64,000 nt of DNA from Chara braunii (Eukaryota; Plantae; Charophyceae), in assembly GCA_003427395.1 (NCBI GenBank), contig BFEA01000039.1, positions 825,293 through 889,292 on the forward strand. The letters are read 5' to 3'. Made by a program: the position numbers and the translations under genes. Under the pieces are notes generated by a model. It ran no database searches. It was not told the DNA's origin and worked only from the letters and a program-made list of their open reading frames with translations. Below, one piece after another: positions 46,201-49,200 of the stretch; the stretch's first letter is position 1; each line of letters starts with the position of its first letter.

Positions 46201-49200
46201 CAGAACCGGACGATGTGCCCGGCGCACCCATCTTCTGCGAAGCCGAGCTACAAGCTTTTTGCCTCTCATCTGCGAAAGCCGCTTGCAAAGTACCATTTTC
46301 ACTTTCTTCCTCCGAGTCCACAAAATTGAAGCCTTCCCCAAAACAAGTTGCATAAGCTGCGATTGTAAACGCCCCGATTTGTCCGTCGAAGTATATCATC
46401 TCCAAACGGTCTAGAAATGCAACTTCCGTCTCCGCCGGTGCCTTATGATACCCCCTCAGAAGTGATTCTATTTTTCGCCTTCTGACGATATATGCACGTT
46501 CCCCTCTGTTTTGTGGCATAGTCTCGAAAAAGAACTCCCAAATGTTGACGATGTTTTGACCAACTTTGTAGATGAGATCACGCTTTTCATCATGTCGAGG
46601 AGGCGGCTTAACAAAGTTGGCGAAGTAAAGTCAACTCTTGACCATCTTGGTGACGAATTGAACGAGAAACTCGAACTTCATACCCTCCCCTTCCAGAACA
46701 ATGCAATGACGGTGACTCTTTAACAACTCCCAAATCAACGCTGCATGACCTTTTCCCAGGAAAACAACCGCCTCATCCGCAGGACAAAAATGCTCCAATG
46801 TCTACACCATCGCATTTGACTCCCTTTCCATACCTTCGTACGCAAATTTCTCCCTTAGCTCCATACCTGCCATTTTCAACTTCGTGGACGTGAAGTTCTT
46901 CTCCACGACATCAGCCAACATCTTTGGCCTTCTCTCTCTGCGCACAAGTGCTGATAAGTCATCCGCCTGCTCGCCAGATGAGCGATCTGCAGCTGGAGTG
47001 TTTGTTGGAATGTCTTCAAACAAGGGAATAGTGTTGCGGTGATAATCCCCATCGTTGGAGTACATAATGACAATCATTCTGTCTGTGTTCTCCAAAGGCA
47101 AGTTCGCAACCTTATATAAATGTTTCGCCTTCGTTTGTTGCTGACGAGTCCACTTTAGAATAGACAAGTGAATGTCAATCTCCCAACTTGTAACTCGCTT
47201 GAAAAGTGTATACTCGCAAGACCGCGGAAAGAAGCACAATAATGTCCAATAATCACCAGCCAGTTTTCCCATGAACTTCCGCAGACCATCAAAGACTTCT
47301 TCAGTCCACACCCCTATCTGGGTTGGGTGACACAAATCCAACACGGCCGTGTGGCAACTCAGATGTTTGACGACTCTGTATATTTCCTTGGAATCCATCT
47401 CGTTTGAAATATCGCTTGGTTCCCCTTGGAATGGGACGAAAACAGAGTTCACGTTCTGTCTTTTGAAATATATATATTACGCCGAGCCCGACATTCTTAT
47501 GCTTTCCGAACCCTTGGTTTCTGATCTGAGCAACAACTTGTTGACAAACTGCACGAACTCTTCTGGGCACTTCGCAGCAAGTGACGATGTTTTCTTGAAG
47601 CCCTTTTCTCCTTTTTCCTCCTCTCCTCCAAGTGTAGCCGGGAAGGTTCACACCCAACTCATGTCTTTGAAATGGCGACGCTGGTCGATCCACCTCTCAG
47701 ACGTCAATCCTTCATCAGAGTACTTATCAAACAAATCAGAAAGGTTGTTGAAGAATGGTTCCGTCCACTCTGACGACTTCCTGTGAGGGTCAGAAATGAA
47801 GACGAAGTAGTGAAACATCCTCAATATTGCTCTTTCAATCTTCACCATTTCCACATATGTTTCCGTTGAATGTTTCCCGACACGTTGAGCAGCTCCACTT
47901 TGCTTAGGAGTCAGTTTCACACTACCTGTGAGAATGTCTCGCAACAGTTGCAGCCGTTCACGCCTCCCAAGGGCTGAAAAAGGCTTCCACGCTCTGATAT
48001 CCGGATCGTGCACAGCCACGAGGTAACCAGGTCCTTTGGTACCCTGAAACCAGTGAACCGGATACGTAACTCCACCTTTCAACTCAAATCCGGATCCAAC
48101 CCTCGGTGCCTTCCCTGATTCACCTTGTTTGGTAGCAGGCTTCACAGCATCTCTCCCCGACAATTGTCCAGCTTCCCAAGCGGCGTACACTTGTTTCACC
48201 TTTTCGACAACGTCATCTGTTGCCTTTGCCAACAACATGTAGGGCCCGAGGGCATTAGACCACTGGCCGCTCCATTGAGTAGTAAGAGACATGTCAATCA
48301 AATTACAAATCCCGATCAAACGAAGAGCCTCTCCTGCAAACTTTTTATACTCTGCATTTTTCACTTCTGTCGCTGAGCCGCCTTTAGCTTCAGGACCGTT
48401 CGACTTGTGCCACAACTTCCGTATGTTCTGGATAACCACGATCTGGTGTGGCGGGGTATTCCATTTGTCCTTGGCATTCTGGAAAGTGCTCAACGTGCCG
48501 TAATTGTTCATGCTCTTATCTGGATAACAAACAGGCCTCGCGGTCCAGCGATCCAATCGGAGCTCTTGTGCGATGTCAGGGCATTCAACAAAACACCTTC
48601 TTGCCGCTGCCACGATATGCTGACCGCTGAGAGGGTAATAGTAGTACTTGTTCACAAATTCGAGGTCGAAATCATCGGGCAGCACCCTCCTTGCTCTCAC
48701 AATCCTCCCTGAAGCGTCAGTATGCAATGTATCACGGAGGGCAACTAACAAAAGGACAGTCTTCTCATACAATGTACAAACATTCATACCGGCAGCTCCA
48801 ATCAATCTCTCTCTCATAGCATCCTCACCCGATGCAACCATTGCGTCATAAATGTCGTCAACCGTCTGTTGCACAAGATAGCGTTGATTGTATCTGAATT
48901 CCCCGTCGGGGATATCCAGAATTCGGTTGAACTGGACATAAATGAATTCCATGTCTGGACATTGATTCCCACGCTCGTCCAACTCAAGGAAGAAGCCTTT
49001 GCTGAGAACACCAGAAGAAGTCACTGATGGCACATTTCTCAAACTTGGCGGCCTAGTAACTGTCTTGCCTTTGGCCTCTTCATCCGATTGNGGTTGTTCC
49101 GCTGGAAAAACGGAAGTCTTTTCCATGACACCACCTTTTGCCTTTCTTTTCTTTGGCTGCTGCTTTTTCTTCGCGATTGCCTCAGTCTCCCGTGTTCGCT

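What the first reader, a model, noticed from the sequence alone, without database searches (positions are those of the whole stretch)
46600..48990. ParB-like + degenerate N6/N4 DNA-methyltransferase-like fusion in a eukaryotic transposon
Seen after reading through four stops: NQR..V..I and YYYPLSGQH..AA resemble the ParB/Srx (DGxHR/DGQHR-type) core. Downstream, HTAVLDLCHP occupies the place of motif IV (DPPY), and ER....V..LEHFC..DEAVVFLGKGH....LLKSHRHCIVLE follows the spacing of beta-class motifs X-I-II (KP..L...I..FS..GD.VLDPF.GSG......GR..IG.E). Both catalytic signatures are degenerate. Known: ParB-methylase fusions are common in phages, and horizontally acquired N4C methylases exist in some eukaryotes. 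Inference: a repurposed, perhaps inactive, DNA-binding clamp or reader that delivers the fused SUMO protease.
Basis: partly seen in the sequence, partly recalled or inferred. Interest (0 to 1): 0.8.

Follow-up and report, generated by a model that had tools for sequence, protein, structure and literature searches.

The report
Algal transposon's ParB-pseudomethylase-SUMO-protease gene
This is a broken copy of a 17.8-kb jumping gene from the stonewort alga Chara whose extra gene is predicted to fold like a bacterial DNA-clamp protein (ParB) joined to a DNA methylase that lacks its catalytic motif in every relative examined, so the protein likely grips the element's own rows of palindromes rather than methylating DNA; a similar ParB-methylase cargo is already reported from a brown alga.

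Summary
One minus-strand frame (49213-46100) has four stops inside the finding and all quoted motifs. Sequence profiles find nothing, but predicted structures match ParB/Noc/sulfiredoxin (VIA Z up to 9.2) and beta-class N6/N4 DNA methyltransferases (Foldseek E 5e-7; Z 16.5). The gene sits in a 17,829-bp element (42883-60711) with ~32-bp imperfect inverted ends, an ACTA target duplication and a divergent DDE-like transposase, the layout of Ectocarpus Sola1-1_Ec32 (PMC12477816). The degeneracy is family-wide: motif IV keeps D (79 of 81) but never PP (0 of 81); the ParB GxxR arginine is absent (0 of 103) while other CTP-site positions are conserved. Fifty-four copies of a 15-bp palindrome lie between the two genes. 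Ulp1 fusion is likely but unproven. Best reading: an element-encoded DNA reader that regulates its own element; binding and inactivity are untested. This scan's unchecked notes report similar pseudo-methylase Sola cargo from a liverwort and an animal. New variant of a known kind.

The parts
42883..60711 (.). Whole element, 17,829 bp, Sola1-like cut-and-paste DNA transposon (decayed copy)
   Evidence: Best terminal inverted pair among 286 candidates and the only >=14/16 pair with a 4-bp TSD (ACTA both sides); 0 of 60 block shuffles gave such a pair; DNA depth tapers at 60300-60800
42883..42915 (+). Left terminal inverted repeat (AACGG..., ~32 bp imperfect), preceded by TSD ACTA 42879-42882
   Evidence: first 40 nt score 30 vs shuffle max 22
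60680..60711 (-). Right terminal inverted repeat (...CCGTT), followed by TSD ACTA 60712-60715
43258..50319 (-). Accessory gene: N-terminal region - ParB - pseudo-MTase - helical and unnamed domains - low-complexity linker - (intron) - Ulp1; broken by stops and frameshifts in this copy
   Evidence: Paralog gene models are co-linear over the span; an extra base at 46194 is absent in 156 of 209 depth units of other copies; a short duplication at 49180-49245 shifts the frame
48461..48952 (-). ParB/Srx nucleotide-binding domain with YN[QH]R (48889-48881), GQH (48625-48617) and N-x-[KR] (N at 48478)
   Evidence: Model pLDDT 89; Caulobacter ParB 7bm8 Z 9.0, rmsd 2.4 over 98 residues; motif counts
47813..48460 (-). 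Helical region with insertions that aligns to the ParB/KorB/Noc HTH DNA-binding domain
   Evidence: KorB 8qa9 201 of 208 residues aligned, rmsd 4.9, Z 7.6, model range 3-381; weaker than the NBD match
46640..47449 (-). Beta-class (permuted) N6/N4 DNA-methyltransferase fold, catalytically degenerate: motif IV site DLCHP 47338-47324, motif I site VFLGKGH 46765-46745, motif II E at 46693
   Evidence: Model pLDDT 87; Foldseek E 4.6e-7; CcrM Z 16.5, rmsd 3.4, 218 aligned; HHalign P 8e-4
44042..44666 (-). Predicted intron (GTAAGC..TATGCAG) joining the upstream frame in phase to the Ulp1 exon; contains an alternative in-phase acceptor at 44430 whose exon ends in a stop at 44139
   Evidence: ab initio paralog models P0190 and P0033 use the first path, P0018 the second; no RNA junction
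43258..44041 (-). Ulp1/C48 SUMO-protease exon; H, D, Q, C catalytic positions present; two stops and a frame shift in this copy
   Evidence: PF02902 E 1.2e-11, 45.3 bits vs cutoff 20.7; alignment
50472..56167 (.). Three tandem arrays (about 50470-51200, 53000-53950, 55150-55760) with different periods sharing the 15-bp palindrome TCGWGT-NNN-ACWCGA; 54 copies
   Evidence: 56 matches in the window at <=1 mismatch (33 exact), 55 inside the element; shuffle mean 0.61 (pattern derived post hoc); periods
51789..52799 (-). Second accessory ORF of unknown function between arrays 1 and 2
   Evidence: No Pfam/NCBIfam/PHROGs hit; five distant-subfamily gene models place a homolog upstream of the ParB-MTase region
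56207..59160 (+). Divergent DDE/DDD-like transposase (DUF7869), broken by stops; acidic motifs IIDG 57785, QADN 58040, GH..DVD 58151
   Evidence: PF25273 E 4e-55; DNA depth similar to the accessory gene

Best explanation
This is a decayed copy of a multi-copy, 17.8-kb Sola-like DNA transposon of Chara whose accessory gene is predicted to encode a ParB domain, a methyltransferase-shaped domain without its catalytic motif and, likely by splicing, a Ulp1 SUMO protease, and the protein likely works as a sequence-specific reader of the element's own 15-bp palindromes rather than as a DNA methylase. Shown: element ends, gene order, stops, predicted folds, family-wide motif pattern, palindrome arrays. 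Inferred mechanism: (1) the ParB-HTH half binds TCGWGT-N3-ACWCGA, a parS-like site arrayed 54 times between the divergent accessory and transposase genes; (2) the conserved YN[QH]R / GQH / N-x-[KR] pocket binds a nucleotide as a loading or spreading switch, probably with altered chemistry because the GxxR arginine is gone; (3) the pseudo-MTase keeps the DNA-binding groove and the acidic residue of the SAM pocket, and adds grip on, or shields, the CpG-rich sites; (4) where attached, Ulp1 removes SUMO from nearby chromatin or transposition proteins. The net effect would be cis-targeted control of the element's own promoter region, most likely relief from host silencing.
For: Folds. Motif IV: D in 79 of 81 stretches, PP in 0 of 81, aromatic at +3 in 1 of 81, against DPPY-type motifs in 40 of 55 reference beta-MTases. 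The only [DNS]PP[YFW] in 195 family proteins is one SPPF (P0113). The pattern spans about ten deep subfamilies at 25-35% identity (quick tree) and an uninterrupted 1419-aa metagenome ORF (P0032), so it is not pseudogene decay. ParB pocket: N.R 91 of 101, GQH 92 of 103, N.[KR] 88 of 91; GxxRxxA and ENxQRE are the CTP motifs of ParB (PMC11229316 passages). Palindromes: 55 of 56 lie inside the element, in three arrays of different period. Precedent for self-binding: PMC12477816 and Bostrychia PAG3 with adjacent inverted-repeat arrays (bioRxiv 10.1101/2025.02.11.637652). Ulp1: 11 of 195 models, C-terminal, in several subfamilies and one close paralog.
Against: No binding, nucleotide or activity data. 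The HTH match is moderate (Z 7.6, rmsd 4.9). The palindrome pattern was derived from the arrays themselves, and tandem duplication inflates its count. Motif I G (103 of 113), H (102 of 113) and motif II E/D (109 of 112) are conserved, so SAM binding or unusual catalysis is not excluded. Chara gene models are ab initio and often chimeric (RT, kinase and dynein fusions), and an alternative in-phase exon ends in a stop before Ulp1. RNA support is trace-level: 15, 72 and 32 reads of 8.9, 16.7 and 16.2 million, 3 of 119 at >=99% identity, no splice joints. Linkage of transposase and accessory gene rests on this one copy plus similar depth.
Confidence: 0.58

Rival explanations
1. The protein is a structural transposition factor: it binds the internal arrays to assemble or time the transpososome of a very long element and has no role against silencing.
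For: Head-to-head with the transposase inside one element; short imperfect TIRs (~32 bp) may need a helper; ParB proteins bridge and condense DNA (PMC11229316).
Against: The palindromes are central, between the two promoters, with none within 1.8 kb of either end; a SUMO protease fits chromatin control better (inference).
Confidence: 0.17
2. The MTase domain is still an enzyme with a non-canonical active site (D-L-C-x-P) that marks the palindromes or another substrate.
For: Intact Rossmann fold at high confidence; motif IV D 79 of 81, motif I G 103 of 113 and H 102 of 113, motif II E/D 109 of 112; active relatives are proposed in algae.
Against: PP 0 of 81 and the base-stacking aromatic 1 of 81; these residues are described as the catalytic core (PMC4738411 passage); the DP before motif I is deleted in the profile alignment.
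Confidence: 0.12
3. The pseudo-MTase is an inactive partner subunit (as METTL14/MTA9 are, recalled) that targets an active methylase encoded elsewhere.
For: Beta-class MTases and the MTA1c/METTL3-14 complexes share this fold (Z 11-12).
Against: No family member with an intact motif among 195 proteins; no partner gene in the element.
Confidence: 0.08
4. The gene is a neutrally decaying passenger of a once-active ParB-methylase.
For: This copy has four stops, frameshifts and an excess of A/T where other copies have G/C; almost no RNA.
Against: Near-invariant motifs across about ten subfamilies at 25-35% identity, and the same substituted motifs in an uninterrupted ORF.
Confidence: 0.05

Closest known systems
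Sola1-1_Ec32 accessory gene, Ectocarpus (PMC12477816; abstract, passages and supplement table rows seen; FASTA supplements not readable)
   Same: Giant Sola-type element (21.5 vs 17.8 kb); ParB-like + N4C/N6A MTase gene on the strand opposite the transposase; 4-bp TSD ending in A; termini AACCG/CGGTT vs AACGG/CCGTT here; proposed self-binding.
   Different: Described there as a methylase that would modify its element. Here the catalytic motif is absent family-wide, a Ulp1 exon follows, there is a second accessory ORF, and the TIR is ~32 bp rather than 282 bp. Sequence homology to the Ectocarpus protein was not tested.
Plavaka accessory genes PAG2/PAG3, Bostrychia (bioRxiv 10.1101/2025.02.11.637652; passages seen)
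   Same: 17-19 kb DNA transposons with a ParB-like gene next to tandem arrays of inverted repeats and an N6-MTase gene; best HHpred hit 7BNR, also the top VIA hit here.
   Different: ParB is fused to a 2OG oxygenase, the MTase to SET, in separate genes; EnSpm-type transposase; the MTase is detected by PF01555.
Bacterial ParB/Noc/KorB CTP clamps (PMC11229316 passages)
   Same: NBD fold, downstream HTH region, N of the ENxxR motif, palindromic repeated sites.
   Different: GQH[NT] in place of GxxR; large insertions; no ParA; CTP use untested.
Beta-class N6/N4 MTases (CcrM, M.RsrI, M.PvuII, Adineta N4CMT structures; Marchantia DN4MT1, bioRxiv 10.1101/2021.02.12.428880 passages)
   Same: Permuted Rossmann fold, motif order IV ... 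X-I-II.
   Different: No [DNS]PP[YFW]; 5-12% identity; DN4MT1 has TSPPY and is an active host enzyme.
Inactive N6A-MTase domains of DIRS1 retrotransposons (PMC4738411 passage)
   Same: Transposon-borne amino-MTase domain judged inactive in all copies and proposed to bind nucleic acid.
   Different: PCIF1-like group-2 fold in a retroelement polyprotein; no ParB.
Transposon anti-silencing factors such as VANC of VANDAL elements, and Ulp1-carrying MULE/Zisupton elements (recalled, no call)
   Same: Element-encoded protein acting on internal repeats; SUMO protease as cargo.
   Different: Unrelated folds; a functional analogy only.

Membership tests
ParB/Srx superfamily | ParB/Srx nucleotide-binding fold | tested here: met
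   Top 19 VIA entries are all ParB/Noc/PadC/KorB/SbnI/Atu1540/Srx, Z 9.2-5.1, next unrelated 3.3; 7bm8 rmsd 2.4 over 98; Foldseek best E 0.014, prob 0.99
ParB CTPase clamps | GxxRxxA motif with the arginine | tested here: not met
   GQH in 92 of 103, R after it in 0 of 103, N/T in 98 of 103
ParB CTPase clamps | ENxxR-type motif | tested here: inconclusive
   N-x-[KR] in 88 of 91, preceded mostly by D/Q/E; equivalence judged by position, not by residue-level superposition
ParB CTPase clamps | HTH DNA-binding domain after the NBD | tested here: inconclusive
   KorB 201 of 208 aligned but rmsd 4.9, Z 7.6
ParB CTPase clamps | CTP binding/hydrolysis, site-specific loading | not testable with these tools
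   needs biochemistry
Beta-class N6/N4 DNA methyltransferases | Permuted Rossmann fold, order IV...X-I-II | tested here: met
Beta-class N6/N4 DNA methyltransferases | [DNS]PP[YFW] catalytic motif IV | tested here: not met
   PP 0 of 81 at the site; 40 of 55 reference enzymes have the motif
Beta-class N6/N4 DNA methyltransferases | DxFxGxG motif I | tested here: not met
   DP deleted in HHalign; FxGxG 22 of 113; motif II E/D kept in 109 of 112
Beta-class N6/N4 DNA methyltransferases | Methyl transfer from SAM | not testable with these tools
   needs assay or long-read kinetics
Sola (Sola1) DNA transposons | TIRs and 4-bp TSD | tested here: met
   compared with the Sola1-1_Ec32 row
Sola (Sola1) DNA transposons | Sola-type DDD transposase | tested here: inconclusive
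   DUF7869 E 4e-55 with three acidic motifs; assignment of DUF7869 to Sola is recalled and echoed by earlier notes; no Sola reference was available and DUF7869 is in 0 papers
Ulp1/C48 proteases | PF02902 domain with H-D-C triad | tested here: met
ParB-MTase-Ulp1 single polypeptide | One spliced transcript | tested here: inconclusive
   in-phase splice path and 11 of 195 models; alternative stop exon; no RNA joint

The most novel reading that the evidence does not exclude
Charophyte giant Sola elements run a self-targeted anti-silencing system built from bacterial parts: a ParB clamp loads at parS-like arrays inside the element, a dead DNA methylase reads or shields their CpGs, and a spliced-on Ulp1 deSUMOylates silencing chromatin. 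Conversion of the methylase into a reader would be an old, repeated step, and the ParB module may be the same class as the DUF3723 cargo of fungal Starships (ESM Atlas 0.97), making ParB-type self-recognition a general trait of giant eukaryotic transposons.
Probability: 0.25. Interest if true: 0.8.

Novelty: new variant of a known kind. Interest (0 to 1): 0.5.

Why it matters
ParB-methylase cargo on algal transposons has been proposed to mark its own element, without tests. This Chara family shows the same architecture kept across about ten deep subfamilies without the catalytic motif, which argues that binding, not methylation, is the core function. It supplies a concrete candidate site (a 15-bp palindrome), an uninterrupted natural ORF to express, and a candidate effector (Ulp1). 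If the binding is real, it is a eukaryotic nuclear ParB/parS-like system and a possible new route of transposon anti-silencing. The copy in this window is itself dead.

Tried and rejected
Sequence-level detection failed: Pfam on 17 window ORFs and on 34 homologs; NCBIfam and PHROGs on 12 proteins; PDB sequences with the protein and two profiles; HMM-vs-sequence in both directions between the family and phage MTases, best E 0.7-0.9. No relative was confirmed in viral contigs or metagenome contigs. All 28 hits and all 51 were Chara braunii; of 20 representatives looked up, 17 were C. braunii and 3 JGI ORFs. The other representatives were not looked up and 39 of the 189 hits were not listed, so the range outside Chara is open. 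No genome is held for the window, so copies could not be compared at DNA level and dN/dS was not computed; identity by region among 60-76% paralogs was fairly flat (0.50-0.78) and not informative. The homodimer prediction of the ParB region gave no verdict. The wide VIA search never ran; the VIA results are second looks at Foldseek's own lists. No listed holder was on record as RNA. A first blast for terminal repeats missed the ends; a TSD-aware scan found them. The neighbouring Helitron (22.4-28.1 kb) was rejected as the host element because it lies outside the TSD-bounded unit. A shared scaffold for CBR_g20304 (DUF7869) and CBR_g20316 (ParB) is too loose to count as linkage. GATC as target was rejected (absent from arrays 2 and 3). 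The MTase tree did not finish and the ParB tree is the quick one. A six-frame Pfam scan of 28000-44600 was not obtained. Literature searches with no result: ParB+methyltransferase+Chara braunii, DUF7869, DUF3723+ParB. Iyer et al. 2011, cited by PMC12477816 for green-algal relatives, was not read.

Full report
Observation. The minus-strand frame 49213-46100 contains the quoted motifs and four stops inside the finding. Close paralogs have ordinary residues at all four positions. Other copies also lack an extra base at 46194 that shifts this copy's frame (156 of 209 depth units). The copy is therefore a pseudogene of a longer gene running from about 50319 to 43258.

Origin and family. All 28 hits of the word-indexed search were Chara braunii hypothetical proteins, 41-88% identical. 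An exhaustive HMMER search gave 189 representatives at 50% clustering, of which 150 were listed. Of 20 looked up, 17 were C. braunii and 3 were JGI metagenome ORFs. A profile search added 51 hits, all C. braunii. A quick tree of 69 ParB domains shows about ten strongly supported deep subfamilies with short tips. In a DNA run, 3002 contigs lie across all 30 bins of 43000-50400 at summed depth 611-3059, while most of the listed single contigs have depth 7-16. This indicates many copies, though the tool warns it is no copy number.

Folds. No sequence profile recognises either domain. AlphaFold models built with family alignments are confident (pLDDT 89 and 87). The N-terminal model's best Foldseek matches are Noc, ParB and sulfiredoxin (best E 0.014, probability 0.99). 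The top 19 VIA entries are all ParB/Srx-superfamily proteins (Z 9.2-5.1, next 3.3); Caulobacter ParB superposes at 2.4 A over 98 residues, and KorB aligns over 201 of 208 residues at 4.9 A, which extends the match into the HTH region. The second model matches beta-class amino-methyltransferases: M1.HpyAVI E 4.6e-7, with 53 matches at E<=0.001; CcrM Z 16.5, rmsd 3.4, 218 aligned; phage and giant-virus N4/N6 enzymes E 2.4e-7. Atlas look-alikes of the MTase part were unnamed clusters (0.94) and a cluster with 39% PF01555 (0.86).

Motifs. Counts are over aligned, gap-free stretches from 195 family proteins. Motif IV keeps D in 79 of 81 but has PP in 0 of 81 and an aromatic at +3 in 1 of 81; 40 of 55 reference enzymes have a DPPY-type motif. 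PMC4738411 (passages) describes that motif as the catalytic core. Motif I lacks the DP; G is kept in 103 of 113, H in 102 of 113, and full FxGxG in 22 of 113, including this copy's subfamily. Motif II keeps E/D in 109 of 112. In ParB, N.R is kept in 91 of 101, GQH in 92 of 103 and N-x-[KR] in 88 of 91, but the arginine of GxxR is absent in all 103 (motif definitions: PMC11229316 passages). The uninterrupted 1419-aa metagenome ORF P0032 has the same substitutions. The degeneracy is therefore an old, conserved state and not decay of this copy.

Element. A scan for inverted ends with target duplications found 42883 and 60711: 14 of 16 matches, about 32 bp of imperfect repeat, and ACTA on both sides. 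It was the only pair of that quality with a 4-bp duplication, and 0 of 60 block shuffles gave one. DNA depth over the DUF7869 ORF (E 4e-55) is similar to that over the accessory gene and falls off at 60300-60800. That ORF has three acidic motifs typical of DDE/D transposases; calling it Sola rests on recall, on earlier scan notes and on the end structure. Between the two divergent genes lie a second accessory ORF and three tandem arrays with different periods that share TCGWGT-N3-ACWCGA. Of 56 matches in the window (33 exact), 55 are inside the element and 54 in 50472-56167; the shuffle mean is 0.61. The pattern was derived from the arrays, so the shuffle figure overstates significance; the informative point is that three different repeat units carry the same core. 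GATC is confined to array 1.

Ulp1. PF02902 scores 45 bits at 43261-43767 with catalytic H, D, Q and C in place. A phase-1 donor at 44666 fits two acceptors: 44042 opens the Ulp1 exon in frame, and 44430 opens a conserved exon that ends in a stop at 44139. Eleven of 195 gene models carry Ulp1 at the C-terminus, in several subfamilies and in one 86%-identical paralog, but these models are ab initio and some are clearly chimeric. RNA reads are too few to decide: 15, 72 and 32 of 8.9, 16.7 and 16.2 million, 3 of 119 at >=99% identity, mostly first-mate on + (strandedness not on record), no joints. Fusion is likely in at least some transcripts, not shown.

Mechanism. Most likely the protein is a reader: ParB-HTH recognises the palindromes, the nucleotide pocket may gate loading, the dead methylase adds DNA contact or shields CpGs, and Ulp1 acts on local SUMOylated proteins, so that the element controls its own central promoter region. 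All four steps are inference. Rivals are a transpososome helper, a non-canonical active enzyme, an inactive partner subunit and neutral decay.

Known systems. Earlier notes of this scan led me to PMC12477816, which describes Sola1-1_Ec32: 21.5 kb, a ParB + N4C/N6A MTase gene opposite the transposase (passages), AACCG-CGGTT termini and a 4-bp TSD biased to end in A (supplement row). Its FASTA supplements could not be read, so neither homology nor the state of its catalytic motif was checked. The Bostrychia preprint reports ParB-2OG genes beside inverted-repeat arrays in Plavaka elements (passages). Searches for a Chara description found none. Unchecked scan notes report pseudo-methylase versions from a liverwort and an animal, and Ulp1-linked versions from land plants.

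Verdict. Real and correctly read by the first stage. It is a new variant of a published but untested architecture; what it adds is family-wide loss of the catalytic motif, a defined candidate site and a likely Ulp1 effector. Interest 0.5.

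Noticed in passing
P0032 residues 95-330 (homologous to window 48952-48200, minus): The ParB part's nearest ESM Atlas clusters are fungal DUF3723 proteins (0.97, 0.96). DUF3723 is a conserved Starship cargo gene (bioRxiv 10.1101/2021.12.13.472469 passages, where it is linked to TIGR02168). DUF3723 together with ParB occurs in 0 papers. DUF3723 proteins may be ParB-like.
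   Followed up: partly
window 22445-28107 (+): Helitron remnant: Rep (PF14214), PIF1 helicase and a Ulp1/C48 domain.
   Followed up: no
window 15250-16450 (+) and 19382-19816 (+): Two stretches homologous to the element's second accessory ORF, followed by another Ulp1-like stretch, with no ParB-MTase hit between them; possibly a related element with a different middle.
   Followed up: partly
window 32462-33295 and 37041-37891: About 850-bp direct repeat, 91% identical, on either side of an assembly gap; further partial copies at 30431-30773/32062-32428 and 36106-36325.
   Followed up: no
window 45500-46000 (minus): A further conserved, unnamed domain after the MTase and helical domain, matched by about 50 family proteins; not folded.
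   Followed up: no
window 45157-45523 and 42974-43047: In-frame 51-bp and 33-bp tandem repeats coding a Gly/Ser linker, and a 16-bp tandem array just inside the left end of the element.
   Followed up: no
window 15486-15520 / 24132-24166 and 6154-6198 / 39609-39653: Short near-exact dispersed repeats of 35 and 45 bases.
   Followed up: no
P0032, P0094, P0112: Three JGI metagenome ORFs form their own branch of the family; P0032 is a stop-free 1419-aa member and the best natural candidate for expression.
   Followed up: partly
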